Shown here: positions 2,600 to 13,862 of the stretch, one piece after another
Position numbering within the stretch: the first letter of the stretch is position 1
Layout of the letters: every line of letters starts with the position of its first letter
Source: an uncultured Acidobacteriaceae bacterium
Lineage (GTDB): Bacteria; Acidobacteriota; Terriglobia; Terriglobales; Acidobacteriaceae
NCBI GenBank assembly: GCA_963836115.1
Contig: CAWIIH010000001.1
Coordinates: forward strand, 18,735-82,734
Direction of reading: 5' to 3'
Length of the DNA stretch: 64,000 nucleotides
The notes under the pieces: model-generated
What the model was told of the DNA's origin: nothing
Database searches by the model: none
What the model saw: only the letters and a program-made list of their open reading frames with translations
Position numbers and translations under genes: made by a program

Positions 2600-2690
2600 T
2601 TCCGGAACAGCGGGTGCCCCGTCCTTGCGTTCTTTGCAAGAGCCTGCCCTGAGCGAAGTCGAAGGGACGGGGCAGCCACGGTGTTGGTGA
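2600..2690. repeat. GC-rich REP-like element (GCCTGCCCTGAGCGAAG[C/T]CGAAGGG family)
   Basis: The core at 2642-2666 recurs at 4645-4671, 19049-19074, 47300-47360, 47551-47573, and in reverse at 48909-48960. Confidence 0.6.
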
Positions 2691-2740
2691 TGCCAGCTAA
2701 GTTCAAAGCCTGGGCCACCCGCCGCCGCTGGCTCCTCTTT

Positions 2741-3133
2741 TCAAGCGTATTCCGACAGCTGATGCAACGGAAATTGCGACTCGATCAACGCGCGCGCATA
2801 TCGACTGTCAACAGAACTCAGAAGGCTCATCACCTGCTCCAGACTGGCAATCTCAAAGTCAACATGCTTCAGCTTGTCCTGCACGGGCCTGGAGGGGTTG
2901 AATAACTTGAATCGAATATCGTGGTCCTGGGCCCATCTCTGCAGAAGCATTAGCATGCCGAGACCGCCACCGCCGATTGCGTGCATTTCCGTGAGGTCCA
3001 AGACTACGACGCGGGCGTCCGTCTGGGACGTAACGGCGTCCCGTAACTTCAAAGCAGCTTCGTTGCGGACAAATCTGCCCGTGCATTCAATGATTGCCAT
3101 CTCACCCACGTTGTCGATATGTACGCTTGGCAT
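2741..3133 (-). CDS. STAS-domain protein (anti-sigma-factor antagonist family)
   Basis: 130 aa; layout GRFVRNEAALKLRDAV ... VVVLDLTEMHAIGGGGLGMLMLL is typical of SpoIIAA/RsbV-like STAS domains. Confidence 0.75.
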   Translation of the reverse strand: MPSVHIDNVGEMAIIECTGRFVRNEAALKLRDAVTSQTDARVVVLDLTEMHAIGGGGLGMLMLLQRWAQDHDIRFKLFNPSRPVQDKLKHVDFEIASLEQVMSLLSSVDSRYARALIESQFPLHQLSEYA

Positions 3134-3731
3134 TATTCCTCCGCGTTAATTGTTGTCTAGTTGTCATATCTAGAGAGCACGAACCCTGCCGCACTGTATT
3201 TTGTGCGAGATGCGAAAGGTAACTTGGCCGTGTTACCGGAACTTCCTGCATGGTGGAAGAAAATCTGACCTACAGGAAATGCTGTACGACCCCGTTCACA
3301 CGGATCGGCACCAGTGGAAATGAAATCTACGATCTCAAAGAGCGGAAGCACTACCAAACCCGGACCTTGCTGCAAATGGACTCGGCCGAGTGCGGTGTGG
3401 ACAGAAACGGCGGCAAGAGCGTGGTTGGCGAACTGGTGGGTACCGCGGTGAACAGGTTCGGCGAAGGGACGGACTAGTACCGCCCGAAACCTCAAGAATC
3501 GATTTGTAAGGCGACGGTTTCAAAGCGGCAGCGGTTCCCGGCGTATTGCGGTGTCGTCTCTCCGTCGCAGCCCCGCGACGTTCGGTGTCCATCTTTACCA
3601 AGCCATGTTGACATTCGAATGCTTTGCAAGTTTGGTACGGATCGTGCTTGGCAGATGGAAGGCGCTGCTCCGCGAATGACGCAAAGGCAAGTTCCTCATG
3701 TGTTTGCCCGGTGAAAAATCGGAGGAGAGTC

Positions 3732-4145
3732 ATGCCAAGAAAACCTGTAGTTCTATGTGTGGATGACGAATGGAATGGTCTTGAAGGTCGCAAGATGCTG
3801 TTGGAGGAAGCTGCGTGCAAGGTCCTGGTCGCCATCAGCGGAGCAGAGGCTTTGCAACTGTTTGCCTCCCAACCCGTCGATTTAGTGCTACTCGACTATC
3901 ACATGCCTGGAATGAATGGGGATGTCGTGGCAGAGCACATGAAAGCCGTCCAGCCCGATGTTCCAATCGCTCTGGTGTCCGCAGATGATGGGCTACCAGA
4001 GAGCGCTCTGAAATGGGTAGATGCGTTTGTGTCCAAGAGCGAGTCGCCTGCAAACCTGCTACAGATTGTCGAGCATTTGCTCGATCTGCGTTTTCTATTT
4101 GCGCCTCTCGATTTAACTGGCGGGCGAGGAAGACGCGTGGCATAA
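3732..4145 (+). CDS. single-domain response regulator (CheY-like receiver)
   Basis: VLCVDDE ... DLVLLDYHMPGMNG ... canonical receiver motifs. ATG at 3732 is preceded by GGAGGAGAG. Confidence 0.85.
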   Translation: MPRKPVVLCVDDEWNGLEGRKMLLEEAACKVLVAISGAEALQLFASQPVDLVLLDYHMPGMNGDVVAEHMKAVQPDVPIALVSADDGLPESALKWVDAFVSKSESPANLLQIVEHLLDLRFLFAPLDLTGGRGRRVA

Positions 4146-4357
4146 GACTTTAGAATTTGAGAGCGACGACGCAGGACTGTGTCGATTTCGTAACACGAAT
4201 CAAAGACGGCCACCATTGGCCACGGTAAGTTCTGCACCCGAGCATGTCCTTTTTGGGGTCGGCACGCGAGGACTTTTGTCATTTGAAGGGTCAAAATCTC
4301 GTGCTCGATATCCCTACGAATCACGCATCAGCTGGAAAACAAAGGACTTTTATAAAA

Positions 4358-4373
4358 TGGCACGGTTCTTGCA
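4358..4373 (+). promoter_or_regulatory. sigma54 (-24/-12) promoter
   Basis: TGGCACGGTTCTTGCA matches the TGGCAC-N5-TTGCA consensus exactly. About 60 nt upstream of the ATG at 4434. Confidence 0.65.
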
Positions 4374-4433
4374 GTCACAAGAGTAGTTTTCGCTGCTTCG
4401 TATTTTGCAAGAGCGCATGGAAGAGAGGTGCTT

Positions 4434-4625
4434 ATGGTAGGCGCAACGAATAATAACAAATACGATTTGAATTCTGCGATCACGTTCCTCTTGGTTGGCC
4501 TAGGTGTCGGGTCGGTTTTGTCCATTGTCTTCAATCCGAAACGAAGAGTCGCGCCAGAGAAAATCGATCGGTGGCGCATGTCAGAGTTGCGGCCACGAAG
4601 GGAAGCAGAGGAGCGAGTAGCGTGA
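4434..4625 (+). CDS. small membrane protein, hypothetical
   Basis: 63 aa with one hydrophobic helix (ITFLLVGLGVGSVLSIVF) and a charged tail. AGAGGTG lies upstream of the ATG. Sits behind the sigma54 promoter. Confidence 0.45.
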   Translation: MVGATNNNKYDLNSAITFLLVGLGVGSVLSIVFNPKRRVAPEKIDRWRMSELRPRREAEERVA

Positions 4626-4727
4626 CGGCTAGGCTGGGCGTCGGCACCTGCCCGGAGCGGAGCCGAAGGGGCGGGCGGCGATGCTGCCTGTCCTATTTGG
4701 TTTGTTATGCCACAGGCGGGCCAACGT

Positions 4728-6155
4728 CTAGAACTTGGTCACTTCCGTGAAATTAAACTCTCGAATCTTCATGGCAGGCACGACCATGTCAAACGACTCC
4801 TCGCCGCAGGAACGAACAGGTGCGCTCATGGCCTCCACGCTCGACAGCATGTGGATGAGGCTCTCGTTAAAACGGAAGTTGCGGATTCCCCGTTTGACTT
4901 TTCCGTCTTCCACCAGGAACGTGCCGTCGCGGGTCATTCCCGTAAGCATTTTTTCGTACGGATCGACTTCGCGGATGTACCACAGCCGGGTGACCAGCAC
5001 GCCGCGCTCGGTGGAGGCGATCATCTCAGACAAGGTTTGCGGATTTTGCGGCGCGGCAAAAACGATGTTCAGCGGCATCTCGCCCATTTCGTTGGGCAGC
5101 GGGAATCCATGGCCGGTGGATGCGATGGGCCCGGCCTTATCTCTATGTTCCGAGCGCTTCATTCTTTCCGCCGTCGCCCGCGCATAGACAACGCGTTTGA
5201 CGACTCCTTTCTCTACCAGCGGTACGGGCATCCGGCGCATGCCCTCGCCATCGAAGGGAGAGCCGGTTTGCAGGGGATGCGTGACGTCGTCCCAGATGGT
5301 GATGTTCTCGCCGAAGAGTTGACTACCGATGCGGCCGGTGAGGAAGGAACGCTGGTCGAGGATCGCCATGCCGGAGTAATCCCAGAACATGAAGCCGACG
5401 ATGTCGAGCACGGCGGCGGGCTCGAGAATCACCGTGTACTTCCCTGCTGGAATCTCCGCGGGATGCGCCGAGTCGAGCGTCTTCTGCGCCGCCGTCTCAG
5501 CAAGACGGAGCGGATCGAGGTTGGCCACGTCGGGCGAGTTGGCTTTCTGCCATCCGGAAGAGTCCCCGCCCAGCATGGTGATGGAAACCTCCGCCAGAGT
5601 CTGGGTATGCCAATTGCTCAGGCCGCGCGAATTGAAAATGCCCTCGACAGATTCGGAACTGGAGAAGATTCCAGCAGCTGTGAGTTTGTGTTTCTGCGCA
5701 ACCTCGACGATCTTCTTTACGCTGTCGGCGCGAAGTTGCGGCGTGATGGCCGCAGTCTGAGCGAAATAGCGGGATGGAGCTTGCGTAGTGAGGACGCCCC
5801 CTTCGGCAAGCTCAGGGCGGGCATCGTCCGCGCTGCCGGCAGCTTCGCGACTGTCGGGCATGGGCAGCAAGTCAGGATCAGAATGCTGCACCTTTGCCAA
5901 TGCTTCCGAAGATTCCACCACCCGCCGCAAGCTTTCGTCGTCAAACTTGTTGGTCGTAGCGCGAGCGGTGCGTCCGCCAAAGGCCGTGCGAACCGAGACG
6001 ATATGATTTTCCTCGGCGACGTTCTGATGGATGGTATTGTTCGCAAACCGAGTCAGCGCAAAGCGTCCGCCGGAAATAAGAACCTCGATCTCGTCAGCGG
6101 ACGACAACTTCCTGATGCGGTCAAAGATGTCGCTCGCTTGTTCCCTGGCTAGCAT
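4728..6155 (-). CDS. pmbA: PmbA/TldE-family metalloprotease subunit
   Basis: 475 aa with TldD/PmbA family similarity. Directly downstream of tldD on the same strand. Confidence 0.85.
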   Translation of the reverse strand: MLAREQASDIFDRIRKLSSADEIEVLISGGRFALTRFANNTIHQNVAEENHIVSVRTAFGGRTARATTNKFDDESLRRVVESSEALAKVQHSDPDLLPMPDSREAAGSADDARPELAEGGVLTTQAPSRYFAQTAAITPQLRADSVKKIVEVAQKHKLTAAGIFSSSESVEGIFNSRGLSNWHTQTLAEVSITMLGGDSSGWQKANSPDVANLDPLRLAETAAQKTLDSAHPAEIPAGKYTVILEPAAVLDIVGFMFWDYSGMAILDQRSFLTGRIGSQLFGENITIWDDVTHPLQTGSPFDGEGMRRMPVPLVEKGVVKRVVYARATAERMKRSEHRDKAGPIASTGHGFPLPNEMGEMPLNIVFAAPQNPQTLSEMIASTERGVLVTRLWYIREVDPYEKMLTGMTRDGTFLVEDGKVKRGIRNFRFNESLIHMLSSVEAMSAPVRSCGEESFDMVVPAMKIREFNFTEVTKF

Positions 6156-10677: not shown

Positions 10678-10753
10678 GGGCCTGTGGCGCAGCTGGGAGC
10701 GCGCTTCCATGGCATGGAAGAGGTCGTCGGTTCGATCCCGACCAGGTCCACCA
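10678..10753 (+). tRNA. tRNA-Ala (anticodon GGC)
   Basis: Acceptor GGGCCTG/CAGGTCC with the G3:U70 pair. Anticodon loop ATGGCAT, GGTTCGATCC T-loop, encoded CCA. Confidence 0.9.
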
Positions 10754-10764
10754 ATTCTCTCAAC
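10745..10764 (+). repeat. att-like direct repeat, left copy (overlaps tRNA-Ala 3' end)
   Basis: GGTCCACCAATTCTCTCAA; near-identical copy at 12641-12659. Confidence 0.55.
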
Positions 10765-10799
10765 AACTTAGACGGGGCGAGTAGTTACCGCAACGGCTC

Positions 10800-10819
10800 T
10801 TGTGTCATGTTTGTGTCAT
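10800..10819 (+). promoter_or_regulatory. tandem 9-bp direct repeats (possible operator or arm-type site)
   Basis: TTGTGTCAT-GT-TTGTGTCAT, 11-bp period, about 80 nt upstream of the ParA-like gene. Confidence 0.3.
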
Positions 10820-10900
10820 AACCCGCCGTGCAATGTTTGTCAGGAGTTAAGATGTAGCCTAGAAATAGTGCGAGTTTTCAATCACCGGGAGACATGACAG

Positions 10901-11857
10901 ATGACTAGTCGAATCGCCATGTTCAATCACAAGGGAGGCGTGAGCAAGACCACGACAACCTTTCACCTAGGCTGGATGCTGGCATCGAAGGGCCACCGAG
11001 TGATCGTGGTGGACGCCGATCCCCAATGCAATCTGAGCGGTCTGATTTTGGGCTTCAAAGGCGAGAATGAGTTTGAACAGTACTATGAGGCCGAGGGCAC
11101 CGGGAACATAAGGGCGGGCCTCGCACCGGCATTCGAGTCTCAACCCCGCGCAATTGAGCCCGTCGAATGCGTTGCCGTGGACGGATGCGAGGGCCTATTT
11201 CTGTTGCCGGGGCACATTCGGCTGTCCGAGTGGGAAGTCACACTTGGTATTGCGCAAGAACTCTCCGGTTCGATTCAGACTTTGCAGAATCTACCTGGTT
11301 CCATCACATACCTCCTTGACATCACTGCCCAGAAGTACAAGGCTGATTATGTCTTAGTTGACATGAACCCCAGCCTCAGCTCGATCAACCAAAACATACT
11401 GATGACCAGTGATTTTTTCATTGTTCCCACTTCACCTGATTACTTCTCGGTAATGGCCATTGAATCACTGTCTACGGTGCTCCCTCGCTGGCAGGCGTGG
11501 GCCGAACGCGCGAAACAAAACCCCACGCTTAAGGGTGCTGCATATCCTTACCCAGGAAACACTCCAAGGTTTCTTGGAACCATTATTCAGAAGTACCGGC
11601 CACGCAAAGGAGCTCCTACGGTGGGCTTCCAAAGCTGGATTGATACGATTAACGATAGGGTCGCGAAGCAACTTGTGCCCACTCTTGCGCCTTTAACCAT
11701 GCTGCTACCGCCCGAGCGCTACCAGCAAGTCACAGGCCTCCTGCCCGGCTATTGTCTTTCTCAGATCGCGGACTTCAACACGCTCATAACGAGGTCCCAG
11801 GAGTACAAGACACCCGTTTTTGCCTTAACGAAGGAGCAGTTGGGCCATGTCGGTTAA
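10901..11857 (+). CDS. ParA/Soj/MinD-superfamily P-loop ATPase (orphan, no ParB)
   Basis: Deviant Walker A FNHKGGVSKTTT, then VVDADPQCN and DYVLVDMNPS. The TAA at 11855-11857 is followed by 28 more in-frame sense codons (VLEIDQAKMKEFEAAFSSLADDVATLTA), so the true end may be 11944. Confidence 0.8.
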   Translation: MTSRIAMFNHKGGVSKTTTTFHLGWMLASKGHRVIVVDADPQCNLSGLILGFKGENEFEQYYEAEGTGNIRAGLAPAFESQPRAIEPVECVAVDGCEGLFLLPGHIRLSEWEVTLGIAQELSGSIQTLQNLPGSITYLLDITAQKYKADYVLVDMNPSLSSINQNILMTSDFFIVPTSPDYFSVMAIESLSTVLPRWQAWAERAKQNPTLKGAAYPYPGNTPRFLGTIIQKYRPRKGAPTVGFQSWIDTINDRVAKQLVPTLAPLTMLLPPERYQQVTGLLPGYCLSQIADFNTLITRSQEYKTPVFALTKEQLGHVG

Positions 11858-11991
11858 GTTTTGGAGATTGATCAAGCAAAGATGAAGGAATTTGAGGCGG
11901 CGTTCAGTTCGTTGGCCGATGACGTGGCAACGCTGACAGCCTAATGACGCAGCGAGATTCAGGGCCAATGTGGTAACAACGCCTAGGCCAA

Positions 11992-12595
11992 ATGAAACCG
12001 GCGCTCGATCAGTTCGATGAGAATATCTCTCGGGCTCGCGTCCTTTCGGGGCTGGCGAGATCGCTCTCAGTACTCACAACAACAGCAGTTGAACCTTAGC
12101 GACATTTATCGCGCCTCGCTGGTTTTGGGGGTGAGCGCACTTGATCAGTTTGTACACGAGTTCGTCCGGCTTGGAATGCTTGATGTGCATAGGGGAAATC
12201 GGCCCGTTACTGATGCCAACCTCGCCTTTAGGATTCCACTGGGAGCTGCCAGGCTTGGAATAGCCAATCCGACGCGAGACGACTGGCTGGATGCGACCGT
12301 ACGAGAGGCACACTCATGGCAAAGTTTTCAACAGCCCGACAAAATCGCGGACGCGATACGCTTGGTATCAGGCGTCAAGTTATGGGAGGAGGTTGCGAAG
12401 GAAGTCGGAACAGATGCAAAAGCAGTCAAAGTCCGGTTGACCGCAATAATCGACAGGCGAAATCAGATCGCACACGAGGCTGATATGGACCCAACGAATC
12501 CAGGAAATCGGTGGCCAATCAGCAGTGCTCTTACGGAGGATGCGCTTGATTACATCGAGCGCCTGATTCATGCAATCTACAAGTCAACCGTCTGA
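11992..12595 (+). CDS. HEPN-like protein (Rx4H motif), apparent 1-nt frame break near 12094
   Basis: All-helical ~200 aa. C-terminal IIDRRNQIAHEAD carries the R-x4-H HEPN signature. The N-terminus (MKPALDQFDENISRARVLSGLARSL...) is in another frame and joins the 12017-12595 ORF if one base is removed near the CC at 12094-12095. Confidence 0.55.
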
Positions 12596-12640
12596 AGCAT
12601 TACCACTTGGCTGTGCAGACTCGTGCTGAAACTATCGGCG

Positions 12641-12659
12641 GGTCCACCAACTCTCAATC
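12641..12659 (+). repeat. att-like direct repeat, right copy
   Basis: GGTCCACCAACTCTCAATC duplicates the tRNA-Ala 3' end plus flank. Confidence 0.55.
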
Positions 12660-12689: not shown

Positions 12690-13862
12690 TTAAGCTCTTG
12701 CGCGCCGCCCCGCAGGTCGGACCTTATCTAACGCCTGACCCAGATCTGCGATCAGATCCTCTGCGTCCTCAATCCCCACCGAATAACGGATGAGCGCCTC
12801 CGGGATGCCCGCCGCCGCGCGTTCCTCCCTGGTGGACTCGACGTGGCTCGTGGTGGCGGGCGGGCCCGCAACCGTCTCGACCGCACCCAGATTTGCCGCC
12901 AAATGTGCATAACGCAAACGCGGCAGGAAAGATTTCACGGAGTCGAAGCCGCCCTTGATGACAAAACTGAGTACGCCTCCAAAACCGCGCATCTGTCGGC
13001 GAGCAATCTCGTAATGCTCGTGGGACTCCAATCCGGGATAGAAGACTTTCATAACGTTCGGGTGTGATGCCATGTATCGCGCAATCTTCAGCGCACTCTC
13101 GTTCTGCCGTTCGATTCGAAGATGAAGAGTTTTCATCCCTCGAAGCAGCAGGTAAGCCGCCATGGGATCGAGGCAGGCTCCGGTGATTTCACGAAAGTGA
13201 TAAATCTTCGCGACCAGATCGGCCGTACCGCAGACTACGCCGCCGAGCGCATCCGCGTGCCCGCCCAGAAACTTTGTCGCGCTGTGAATCACGAGATCGG
13301 CGCCGAGTTTCACAGGCTGCTGATTGATCGGCGTGGCAAAGGTGTTGTCCACAATCACCACGGCCTTGTGGCGATGGGCCGCGGCAGCCAGGCGGCCGAG
13401 ATCGACAACTTTGACGGTCGGATTCGTCGGGCTCTCCAGATACACAGCCTTGCACCCCTGTGCGATCGCCGTTTCAATTGCTTTGTGATTACTGGTATCG
13501 CACAGCGACACGTCGATACCAAATCGTGGCAGGAATTCGATAAACAGCTTGTTCGTCCCTCCGTAAGTGTCTTTAATGGAAACGACGCGATCCCCGGGAA
13601 ACAGAAGCGCAAAGAGCGTATTGCTGATCGCGCCCATGCCGCTCGAAAAACTGGTGGCAGCTTCGGCGCTCTCGAGATTCCTTACCTTCTCTTCGAAGGC
13701 GGCTACGGTTGGATTTGTGTTGCGGCTATAGATGTGGCCATGGCTCTTTCCTTGCGCCACCGCGAGCCATTCATCCACACTGTCGTAGCCGAACGAGACG
13801 CTAAGCGCCACTGGTATTTGCGTAGCACCTTCCCAATGCGTGCCGCCCTCACCAGCCCACAC
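12690..13862 (-). CDS. Cys/Met-metabolism PLP-dependent enzyme (cystathionine gamma-synthase/lyase family)
   Basis: SATKFLGGHAD PLP-lysine motif with family-wide similarity. Homology (TRAVWAGE) continues about 14 codons upstream of the GTG at 13862 to an in-frame TGA without a canonical start, so the start is uncertain. Confidence 0.85.
   Translation of the reverse strand: MWAGEGGTHWEGATQIPVALSVSFGYDSVDEWLAVAQGKSHGHIYSRNTNPTVAAFEEKVRNLESAEAATSFSSGMGAISNTLFALLFPGDRVVSIKDTYGGTNKLFIEFLPRFGIDVSLCDTSNHKAIETAIAQGCKAVYLESPTNPTVKVVDLGRLAAAAHRHKAVVIVDNTFATPINQQPVKLGADLVIHSATKFLGGHADALGGVVCGTADLVAKIYHFREITGACLDPMAAYLLLRGMKTLHLRIERQNESALKIARYMASHPNVMKVFYPGLESHEHYEIARRQMRGFGGVLSFVIKGGFDSVKSFLPRLRYAHLAANLGAVETVAGPPATTSHVESTREERAAAGIPEALIRYSVGIEDAEDLIADLGQALDKVRPAGRRARA

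What the first reader, a model, noticed from the sequence alone, without database searches (positions are those of the whole stretch)
10745..12659. tRNA-Ala-linked 1.9-kb islet carrying only a ParA-like ATPase and a HEPN-like protein: candidate new two-gene conflict (defence/TA-like) module
Directly 3' of tRNA-Ala(GGC) the sequence is visibly more AT-rich for about 1.9 kb. The last 9 nt of the tRNA plus its flank (GGTCCACCAATTCTCTCAA, 10745-10764) recur at 12641-12659 (GGTCCACCAACTCTCAATC). That is the classic footprint of integration into a tRNA 3' end, yet no integrase is present. The cargo is two co-oriented genes. The first is a deviant-Walker-A ParA/Soj/MinD-type ATPase (KGGVSKTT, DADPQ) with no ParB, no visible centromere repeats and no replicon context. 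The second is a ~200-aa helical protein whose C-terminal helix carries RRNQIAHEAD, the Rx4H signature of HEPN RNases. HEPN nucleases paired with NTPases are a recurring theme in abortive-infection and TA systems. I know of no experimentally characterised ParA-type ATPase + HEPN pair. Two 9-bp direct repeats (TTGTGTCAT, 11-bp period, 10800-10819) upstream could be an operator. Caveats: in this assembly the ATPase ends at a TAA followed by 28 in-frame sense codons, and the HEPN gene needs a 1-nt correction near 12094.
Basis: partly seen in the sequence, partly recalled or inferred. Interest (0 to 1): 0.78.

Follow-up and report, generated by a model that had tools for sequence, protein, structure and literature searches.

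The report
tRNA-linked ParA-like ATPase plus HEPN module
A 1.9-kb insertion next to a tRNA-Ala gene in a soil acidobacterium carries a widespread two-gene cassette, a ParA-like ATPase and a HEPN RNase, which is probably a toxin-antitoxin or anti-phage module that was predicted on paper in 2013 but never tested.

Summary
tRNA-Ala(GGC) ends at 10753. Its last 9 nt plus 6 flank nt recur at 12641-12655 (14/15; 1 of 300 shuffles). The interval has 52.8% GC against 58.6% for the window. The close relative L026 has the same tRNA directly next to the same PLP-enzyme gene, that is, an empty site. Another relative has a tyrosine integrase at this tRNA.

The cargo is a ParA/Soj-fold ATPase with a deviant Walker A. 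With it comes a RiboL-PSP-type HEPN protein (Pfam PF18735) with an invariant Rx4H motif. The two genes form an obligate operon: 55 of 55 metagenome loci with enough flank, 11 of 12 viral contigs, Burkholderia glumae plasmids and the Pseudomonas Pf5 prophage all have both. No ParB is ever present. Neighbours include restriction-modification, CBASS, toxin-antitoxin genes and integrases.

I read it as a mobile toxin-antitoxin or abortive-infection module. It is not wholly new. A ParA/Soj + HEPN dyad was predicted in 2013 for a sister HEPN family, and PF18735 HEPN domains occur in validated defence systems. The module has no PADLOC v2 match, and I found no experimental study.

The HEPN frameshift is probably an assembly error, because housekeeping genes in this window carry the same kind of 1-nt insertion. 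The proposed TTGTGTCAT operator is not conserved.

The parts
10678..10753 (+). tRNA-Ala(GGC), the integration target. The gene is identical in six of seven related Terriglobia genomes; L007 differs at two compensating T-stem positions.
   Evidence: ARAGORN; comparison with L004-L008, L026 and L045
10745..10759 (+). Left (attL-like) copy of the direct repeat, GGTCCACCAATTCTC: the last 9 nt of the tRNA plus 6 nt of flank.
   Evidence: 1 of 300 shuffles. Homology with the empty-site relative L026 stops at 10759.
10754..10781 (+). Semi-conserved flank ATTCTCTCAACAACTTAGACGGGGCGAG. Similar sequence follows the tRNA in L004, and follows the displaced partial tRNA copy in L005. It is either an old flank or the shared arm of a family of elements.
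10800..10819 (+). Two TTGTGTCAT copies at an 11-nt period. They lie outside the conserved module, so an operator role is not supported.
10830..10900 (+). Conserved upstream leader of the module, 88% identical to L001. It holds a possible promoter (TTGTCA-N17-TAGAAA, 10837-10865) and the ribosome-binding site GGGAGAC. The promoter is my reading by eye; the consensus scan did not call it.
10901..11944 (+). ParA/Soj/MinD-fold ATPase, 347 aa if the TAA at 11855-11857 is read through and 318 aa as assembled. Deviant Walker A at 10931-10954, DADPQ at 11012-11026.
   Evidence: Pfam AAA_31 3.6e-28 and CbiA; homologues of 347-352 aa at up to 90% identity; 27-sequence alignment with invariant KGGVSKTT, D38 and D40; AlphaFold2 model with Foldseek matches to 3pg5 and Soj/ParA
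11914..11991 (+). Degenerate tandem duplication of about 49 nt at the gene junction. It separates the ATPase stop from the HEPN start, which overlap in homologues.
   Evidence: gene gaps of 34 nt or less in 55 of 55 other loci
11992..12595 (+). RiboL-PSP-type HEPN protein, 200 aa once the +1 insertion at about 12092-12094 is removed. The Rx4H motif RRNQIAHEAD lies at 12455-12484.
   Evidence: Pfam PF18735; homologues of 200 aa at up to 92% identity; invariant residues; all-helical AlphaFold2 model with pLDDT 90
12641..12655 (+). Right (attR-like) copy of the direct repeat, GGTCCACCAACTCTC. It sits 34 nt from the PLP-gene stop. In L026 the real tRNA end sits 31 nt from the same stop.
12690..13862 (-). 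Cys/Met-metabolism PLP enzyme, the chromosomal gene on the right flank.
   Evidence: Pfam PF01053 1.5e-132; 89% identical orthologue beside the tRNA in L026

Best explanation
The 1.9-kb interval is a small mobile islet inserted at the 3' end of tRNA-Ala(GGC) in a Sulfotelmatobacter-like acidobacterium. The insertion most likely occurred by site-specific recombination. The islet now lacks its own integrase.

Its only cargo is a self-contained two-gene operon that moves between plasmids, phages, integrative elements and defence islands. The downstream gene encodes a standalone HEPN RNase with an Rx4H active site, which I take to be the toxic effector. The upstream gene encodes a ParA/MinD-type ATPase. 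I infer that this ATPase holds the RNase inactive by nucleotide-dependent binding or modification. I further infer that it releases or licenses the RNase when the cassette is lost or when a phage perturbs it. That would make the pair a toxin-antitoxin or abortive-infection module.

Shown here: the insertion, the domain identities, the obligate pairing and the mobile or defence contexts. Inferred: RNase toxicity, neutralisation by the ATPase and the trigger.
For: Insertion:
- An empty site exists in L026. Homology with the window stops at 10759 and resumes at 12690.
- A 15-nt direct repeat includes the tRNA 3' end.
- The interval is a low-GC outlier.
- The flank of this tRNA differs in all 7 relatives. 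L008 has a Phage_integrase + HTH_17 element there. L005 has an integrase-less islet of about 990 bp bounded by a 45-nt partial tRNA copy.
- The closest copy of the module, L001 (88% nt identity over 10830-12615), has a decayed tRNA-Ala 3' fragment about 100 nt upstream.
- A tRNA lies within 600 bp of the module in 3 of 33 other loci.

Domain identities:
- HEPN: PF18735 above the gathering cut-off; 30 of 30 homologues hit it; R155, R156, N157, H161, E162 and D164 are invariant.
- ATPase: KGGVSKTT, D38 and D40 are invariant, and the fold matches Soj/ParA.

Pairing:
- 55 of 55 loci with enough flank have both genes, abutting or overlapping.
- 11 of 12 viral contigs, Pf5 and the B. glumae plasmids also have both. 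The pairing holds down to 29% HEPN and 41% ATPase identity.

Context:
- Type III restriction-modification + CBASS + integrase.
- BrnT.
- RelB, HicB and DUF433.
- An integrase element with a BamHI-like restriction-modification system.
- DnaB and a resolvase.

Precedent:
- A ParA/Soj + HEPN toxin-antitoxin dyad was predicted, with the ATPase as antitoxin (PMC3710099).
- PF18735 HEPN domains occur in the validated systems PD-T4-2, PD-T4-5, PD-T7-3 and ApeA (PMC10952713).
Against: - There is no experimental evidence for toxicity, RNase activity or phage defence.
- Neither protein hits a known system in PADLOC v2. The only match is the ATPase P-loop to candidate PDC-M28B.
- The Foldseek search of the HEPN model against the PDB gave nothing significant. 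HepT toxins were the best recurring hit, at probability 0.3-0.47.
- A 348-aa ATPase is an unusual antitoxin.
- Some copies sit alone between housekeeping genes, with no mobile or defence neighbours.
- In this window the ATPase has a premature stop, the HEPN gene is frameshifted and the gene junction is duplicated. This copy may therefore be inactive.
- The repeat is only 15 nt long, and there is no integrase in the islet.
- The 28 nt after the tRNA resemble flanks in L004 and L005, so the exact left boundary is ambiguous.
Confidence: 0.68

Rival explanations
1. It is a maintenance or partition device of mobile elements rather than a toxin system. The ParA-like ATPase would position or segregate the element's DNA, and the HEPN-like protein would act as a non-catalytic adaptor in place of ParB.
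For: - The ATPase has a ParA/Soj fold, and its best PHROG match is 'ParA-like partition protein'.
- The pair occurs on conjugative plasmids, phage contigs and the Pf5 prophage, where the ATPase was annotated 'putative regulatory protein'.
Against: - The catalytic Rx4H and surrounding residues are invariant across the family, which a mere adaptor would not need.
- Many copies are single chromosomal islets between housekeeping genes with no replicon (and this window).
- No centromere-like repeat array lies near the module.
- No NCBIfam partition model reaches its cut-off.
Confidence: 0.1
2. The module is real, but the 'integration footprint' is not. On this view the region downstream of tRNA-Ala is a recombination hotspot, the cassette arrived by illegitimate or homologous recombination, and the 15-nt repeat is chance or microhomology.
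For: - The repeat holds only 9 nt of the tRNA. The neighbouring L005 islet has a 45-nt partial tRNA copy.
- No integrase or integrase remnant is present.
- The 28 nt after the tRNA look like flank sequence shared with L004 and L005.
- About 0.15 repeats of 14/15 are expected somewhere in any 2.6-kb stretch (my estimate).
Against: - When anchored at the tRNA end, only 1 of 300 shuffles reproduces the repeat.
- The right copy sits before the PLP-gene stop at almost the same distance as the true tRNA end in L026 (34 nt against 31 nt).
- A relative has an integrase at the same tRNA.
Confidence: 0.2
3. The copy in this window is a dead relic. On this view the stop codon, the frameshift and the junction duplication are real mutations, so the locus has no function in this organism.
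For: - Three lesions lie within 250 bp.
- No nonsense codon was seen in about 4,400 codons of neighbouring housekeeping genes, so the TAA stands out.
Against: - Single-base insertions of the same kind disrupt housekeeping genes at about 8247, 18903 and 19955. The HEPN frameshift therefore fits the error rate of the assembly.
- The reading frames are otherwise 87-92% identical to intact homologues, with no further decay.
Confidence: 0.35

Closest known systems
ParA/Soj-like ATPase + HEPN (MAE_18760 family) dyad predicted as a toxin-antitoxin system by Anantharaman et al. 2013 (Biol Direct 8:15, PMC3710099)
   Same: - Two-gene operon with a ParA/Soj-type ATPase upstream of a standalone HEPN protein carrying Rx4-6H.
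- Predicted roles: ATPase as antitoxin, HEPN as RNase toxin.
   Different: - Here the HEPN protein belongs to Pfam PF18735 (RiboL-PSP type). Its match to the MAE_28990/MAE_18760 model is only marginal (E = 0.099).
- The 2013 table lists RiboL-PSP HEPN with L-PSP fusions and ParB operons, not with ParA.
- Neither dyad has been tested experimentally, as far as my literature searches show.
MntA-HepT (MNT-HEPN) type VII toxin-antitoxin systems
   Same: - A HEPN RNase toxin is encoded just downstream of an NTP-using partner that neutralises it. In MntA-HepT the partner AMPylates the toxin; this is from my own knowledge of the literature.
- HepT chains were the only recurring family with raised probability in the fold search.
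   Different: - The partner here is a P-loop ParA/MinD ATPase, not a minimal nucleotidyltransferase.
- The HEPN protein is larger (200 aa against about 130 aa) and has no significant sequence or fold match to HepT.
PD-T4-2 and other validated defence systems with PF18735-type HEPN domains (PD-T4-5, PD-T7-3, ApeA)
   Same: They use the same Pfam HEPN family as a presumed effector in proven anti-phage systems (review PMC10952713).
   Different: - The partner in PD-T4-2 is a DUF262 (ParB-like) NTPase, not a ParA-like ATPase.
- PADLOC models of these systems do not recognise this HEPN family beyond chance. PD-T4-2_B hit 2 of 30 members at E = 0.016.
ParABS partition systems
   Same: The ATPase has the deviant Walker A, the Asp motifs and the Soj/ParA fold.
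   Different: - No ParB and no centromere repeats are present.
- The partner is always the HEPN protein.
- The ATPase has an extra C-terminal region of about 100 aa.
- Its closest solved structure is the uncharacterised 3pg5/DIP2308.
tRNA-linked genomic islands and integrase-less, att-flanked remnants (cis-mobilisable elements, CIMEs)
   Same: - The islet sits at a tRNA 3' end and is bounded by a direct repeat that includes the tRNA end.
- Its composition is atypical, and a relative has an empty site.
- The comparison with CIMEs is from my own knowledge.
   Different: - The islet is only 1.9 kb and the repeat only 15 nt.
- No recombination gene or remnant is present.

Membership tests
ParA/Soj/MinD (SIMIBI) ATPases | Deviant Walker A, KGGxxK[ST], with the signature lysine | tested here: met
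   KGGVSKTT at residues 11-18, invariant in 27 homologues
ParA/Soj/MinD (SIMIBI) ATPases | Fold similar to Soj/ParA/MinD | tested here: met
   AlphaFold2 model (pLDDT 75). Foldseek gives 3pg5 at 6e-12, then Soj 2bek at 1e-9 and ParA 8ray at 2e-9.
ParABS partition systems | Adjacent ParB-type adaptor and centromere repeats | tested here: not met
   The downstream gene is the HEPN protein in 55 of 55 loci. There is no repeat array. No NCBIfam partition model reaches its cut-off.
HEPN superfamily, RiboL-PSP family (PF18735) | Profile match above the curated cut-off | tested here: met
   32.9 bits against a gathering cut-off of 28.4 for the repaired window protein. 30 of 30 homologues match, best E-value 3e-13.
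HEPN superfamily, RiboL-PSP family (PF18735) | Conserved Rx4-6H catalytic motif | tested here: met
   R156-x4-H161 within the invariant block RRNxxAHEAD
HEPN superfamily, RiboL-PSP family (PF18735) | All-alpha HEPN fold similar to solved HEPN structures | tested here: inconclusive
   The model is all-helical with pLDDT 90. No Foldseek PDB hit has E below 1. HepT chains reach probability 0.3-0.47 and TM-score about 0.5 on the target. The profile search of PDB sequences found nothing.
HEPN superfamily, RiboL-PSP family (PF18735) | Metal-independent endoRNase activity | not testable with these tools
   Needs biochemistry.
Toxin-antitoxin modules (type II/VII-like) | Compact two-gene operon with overlapping or abutting genes, patchy and mobile distribution | tested here: met
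   Gene gaps are 34 nt or less, mostly 7 nt or less. Called genes overlap in L001, L003, L166-L171 and L184-L188. The module is absent from 7 close relatives. It occurs on plasmids and phages. In this window the junction is split by a duplication.
Toxin-antitoxin modules (type II/VII-like) | Toxin arrests growth and the cognate partner neutralises it | not testable with these tools
   Needs expression assays.
Catalogued anti-phage defence systems (PADLOC-DB v2.0) | Significant match of the components to a system's models | tested here: not met
   HEPN: no hit for the window protein, and only chance-level hits for 30 homologues. ATPase: only the P-loop matches candidate PDC-M28B. Newer DefenseFinder models could not be run.
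tRNA-integrated genomic island | Direct repeat containing the tRNA 3' end at the far boundary | tested here: met
   10745-10759 against 12641-12655, 14 of 15 identical; 1 of 300 shuffles
tRNA-integrated genomic island | Empty site in a related genome | tested here: met
   L026 has the tRNA, then 31 nt, then the PLP-gene stop.
tRNA-integrated genomic island | Integrase encoded in the island | tested here: not met
   The islet has only two ORFs and no integrase similarity. L008 has an integrase at the same tRNA, but it is unrelated to the integrases seen near other copies of the module.

The most novel reading that the evidence does not exclude
The ParA-like ATPase + RiboL-PSP HEPN pair may be a widespread anti-phage abortive-infection system that has not been validated. 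The family has about 1,500 clusters at 50% identity. In this reading a ParA-type ATP/DNA-dependent dimer switch senses infection and licenses a HEPN RNase. This sensor-effector logic is not represented among characterised defence systems. Filamentous prophage Pf5 of P. aeruginosa PA14 and B. glumae plasmids carry the pair as accessory cargo.
Probability: 0.35. Interest if true: 0.65.

Novelty: new member of a known kind. Interest (0 to 1): 0.45.

Why it matters
HEPN RNases paired with NTP-using partners recur in toxin-antitoxin and anti-phage biology, but the ParA-type partner has never been tested. This analysis shows three things:
- The pair is an obligate, highly conserved and very mobile cassette.
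- It is absent from a current defence catalogue (PADLOC v2).
- Tractable copies exist: Pf5 in P. aeruginosa PA14, where the HEPN gene is unannotated, and Burkholderia glumae plasmids.

The 2013 prediction is therefore directly testable. The locus also documents a tRNA-Ala hotspot in Terriglobia where tiny integrase-less islets accumulate.

Tried and rejected
- **Integrase fossil.** I looked for a remnant in the left arm (10754-10900) by tblastn with the L008 integrase and by six-frame reading. Nothing was found. The L008 integrase is also unrelated to the integrases near other copies of the module.
- **TTGTGTCAT operator.** The repeats lie upstream of the DNA shared with L001 and L002 and are absent from 17 other upstream regions. 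Rejected as a conserved feature.
- **'Toxin decays first' argument.** The HEPN gene is frameshifted here, in L002 and in L184, while the ATPase is intact in the last two. I dropped this argument for three reasons. L189 and L190 are intact and differ only in gene calling. The record names of L002 and L184 look like long-read assembler output, which is my inference, not something a tool stated. The window itself has 1-nt insertions in housekeeping genes.
- **Fold search for the HEPN protein.** It gave no significant hit, and the sequence-profile search of the PDB gave none.
- **NCBIfam.** No family reached its cut-off for either protein.
- **Source genome.** An exact-sequence look-up of the window's pyrG found nothing on record.
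- **Literature.** Searches for an experimental study of a ParA + HEPN pair or of PA14_49030 returned nothing relevant.
Full report
**1. The observation**

ARAGORN places tRNA-Ala(GGC) at 10678-10753. The sequence GGTCCACCAATTCTC (10745-10759) is the last 9 nt of the tRNA plus 6 nt of flank. It recurs as GGTCCACCAACTCTC at 12641-12655. I anchored a 15-mer at the tRNA end and searched 5 kb downstream. Only 1 of 300 shuffles gave a match of 14/15 or better.

The enclosed 1,881 bp have 52.8% GC. The window mean is 58.6% (sd 2.4%), and only 0.3% of equally long windows are as low.

The interval holds two co-oriented genes and nothing else. So are the in-frame TAA at 11855-57 and the +1 frameshift near 12094.

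**2. Organism and the integration site**

A scan of one genome per species with the neighbouring CTP synthase places the window in Terriglobia, close to Candidatus Sulfotelmatobacter. The pyrG product is 94-97% identical to those of seven MAGs. All seven have the same tRNA-Ala beside pyrG. None has the ATPase or the HEPN gene.

- **L026 (97%) is an empty site.** Its tRNA end is followed by ATTCTC, then 25 further nt, and then the stop of the same Cys/Met-metabolism PLP-enzyme gene that flanks the islet in the window. Homology with the window stops at 10759 and resumes at 12690.
- **The spacing matches.** The window's right repeat lies 34 nt before that stop. In L026 the true tRNA end lies 31 nt before it.
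- **The tRNA flank differs in every relative**.
  - L008 has a tyrosine integrase (Pfam Phage_integrase) and an HTH_17 excisionase-like gene starting 6 nt after the tRNA.
  - L005 has an integrase-less islet of about 990 bp bounded by a 45-nt partial tRNA copy.

This tRNA is therefore a genuine integration hotspot. The window's islet has the geometry of an integrated element that lacks its own integrase.

Two cautions apply. The repeat is short. The 28 nt after the tRNA (10754-10781) resemble the flanks in L004 and L005. They may be an older flank or a shared element arm, and I could not decide which.

**3. The two proteins**

The ATPase matches Pfam AAA_31 (3.6e-28) and CbiA.
- KGGVSKTT, D38, D40 and many other residues are invariant in 27 homologues.
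- An AlphaFold2 model (pLDDT 75) matches Soj/ParA structures. The best match is the uncharacterised 3pg5 (DIP2308).
- No NCBIfam partition model reaches its cut-off.

The second protein, once the frameshift is repaired, scores 32.9 bits on PF18735 HEPN_RiboL-PSP against a gathering cut-off of 28.4.
- 30 of 30 homologues hit the same family.
- R155, R156, N157, H161, E162 and D164, which include the Rx4H motif, are invariant.
- The model is all-helical with pLDDT 90.
- The fold search against the PDB was not significant. HepT HEPN toxins were the only recurring family with raised probability.

Membership of the HEPN clan therefore rests on the sequence profile and the motif, not on fold comparison.

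**4. The pair is an obligate, mobile cassette**

- Both families are large. The HEPN query found 1,366 clusters at 90% identity. A profile search found 1,542 clusters at 50% identity, nearly all standalone proteins of about 200 aa.
- Of 80 metagenome loci found with the HEPN profile, 55 have at least 1,100 bp upstream. All 55 carry the ATPase directly upstream on the same strand, with a gap of 34 nt or less.
- The same holds for 11 of 12 viral contigs, for Burkholderia glumae conjugative plasmids and for prophage Pf5 of P. aeruginosa PA14.
- In Pf5 the 'Soj-like Orf317' (PA14_49030 of Mooij et al. 2007, PMC3820363, by my identification) is followed by an unannotated 175-aa ORF with RRNSIVHEAD.
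- The pairing persists down to 29% HEPN and 41% ATPase identity. No ParB is ever present.
- Neighbours fall into several groups:
  - type III restriction-modification, CBASS (SMODS + Cap15) and a tyrosine integrase;
  - BrnT;
  - RelB, HicB and DUF433;
  - an integrase/HTH_17 element with a BamHI-like restriction-modification system;
  - DnaB and a resolvase;
  - sometimes only housekeeping genes.
- A tRNA lies within 600 bp in 3 of 33 loci with enough flank, two of them tRNA-Ala.
- The closest copy, L001 (88% nt identity over 10830-12615), has a decayed tRNA-Ala 3' fragment about 100 nt upstream.

**5. Mechanism**

Shown here:
- an insertion at a tRNA;
- a ParA-fold ATPase with intact nucleotide motifs;
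- a HEPN protein with an intact catalytic motif;
- obligate pairing, with called genes that overlap in homologues;
- carriage on mobile elements and in defence or toxin-antitoxin neighbourhoods.

Inferred:
- The HEPN protein is an RNase toxin or effector.
- The ATPase restrains it by nucleotide-dependent binding or modification.
- Loss of the cassette or a phage cue frees the RNase.

This is the logic Anantharaman et al. proposed in 2013 for a ParA/Soj + HEPN (MAE_18760) dyad (PMC3710099). It parallels MntA-HepT, which I cite from my own knowledge. PF18735 HEPN domains also occur in the validated systems PD-T4-2, PD-T4-5, PD-T7-3 and ApeA (PMC10952713).

PADLOC v2 does not recognise the module. 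I found no experimental paper on it.

**6. State of this copy**

Homologues show three differences from the window copy.
- The TAA replaces a Ser or Thr codon.
- The HEPN gene carries one extra base.
- A degenerate duplication of about 49 nt splits the normally overlapping gene junction.

Comparison with relatives also shows 1-nt insertions that break housekeeping genes. One is at about 8247 in the gene next to pyrG. Two more are at about 19955 and 18903 in a large conserved protein. No nonsense codon was seen in about 4,400 neighbouring codons.

The HEPN frameshift is thus most simply an assembly error. The TAA and the duplication may be real. I cannot tell whether this copy is active.

**7. 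What did not hold**

- The TTGTGTCAT pair is real, and these are the only two copies in the window. It lies outside the conserved module and is absent upstream of other copies.
- The consensus promoter scan called nothing in the islet. A weak TTGTCA-N17-TAGAAA inside the conserved leader is my own reading.

**8. Verdict**

Novelty is moderate. The architecture was predicted in silico in 2013 for a sister HEPN family, and the HEPN family is already in Pfam and PHROGs (phrog_13503, unknown function). The system remains experimentally uncharacterised, is absent from a current defence catalogue and is present in tractable hosts.

Noticed in passing
window ~8247, ~18903, ~19955: Single-base insertions split conserved housekeeping genes relative to four related genomes. 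One is in the gene next to pyrG and two are in a large conserved protein. The assembly seems to have a noticeable indel error rate, so frameshift-based pseudogene calls in this window are unsafe.
   Followed up: partly
window 11914-11991: A degenerate tandem duplication of about 49 nt covers the ATPase-3'/HEPN-5' junction. Homologues have overlapping stop and start codons (GCCAAATGA), whereas the window has a 47-nt spacer.
   Followed up: partly
L005 (Ca. Sulfotelmatobacter MAG), about 1 kb downstream of its tRNA-Ala: A second integrase-less islet of about 990 bp sits at the same tRNA-Ala. It carries a 216-aa zinc-ribbon membrane protein with no Pfam hit and is bounded by a 45-nt partial tRNA copy.
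   Followed up: partly
L008 5512-6732 and 5125-5463 (locus coordinates): A 407-aa tyrosine integrase and an HTH_17 excisionase-like gene start 6 nt after the same tRNA-Ala(GGC) in a relative. This shows that integrases use this site.
   Followed up: yes
L084 (AY324828, Pseudomonas prophage Pf5) 2977-4528: The Soj-like 'Orf317' reads as a 343-aa ORF. An unannotated 175-aa HEPN ORF (RRNSIVHEAD) follows it, about 400 nt from the att site. This is a distant copy of the same two-gene module in a well-studied strain.
   Followed up: partly
L085 (Burkholderia glumae plasmid NZ_CP021160) 3949-5588: An AAA-family ATPase (WP_017432679) and a HEPN-domain protein (WP_017432680) form the same pair. It occurs on 13 Burkholderia plasmids, mostly typed as conjugative.
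   Followed up: partly
L130 3600-7200: The module sits inside an array of tRNA-Ala genes: two CGC, one GGC, and a tRNA-like pseudogene at 4669-4742. The 5' halves of the tRNAs on either side are identical over 31 nt.
   Followed up: no
window ~2650-4600: This is a second low-GC patch (about 53%), as extreme as the islet. It holds small ORFs that by eye resemble a STAS domain and a response-regulator receiver, which I did not verify.
   Followed up: no
PDB 3pg5 (DIP2308, Corynebacterium diphtheriae): An uncharacterised structural-genomics protein of similar length is the closest solved structure to the ATPase, by both sequence and fold. I did not check whether it has a HEPN neighbour.
   Followed up: no
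L001 7040-7150: Two copies of a roughly 30-nt GC-rich hairpin-like repeat (CAATCCACGCCCCGYGTTCTTCTGCGRGGCG) lie just downstream of the HEPN gene in the closest copy of the module.
   Followed up: no
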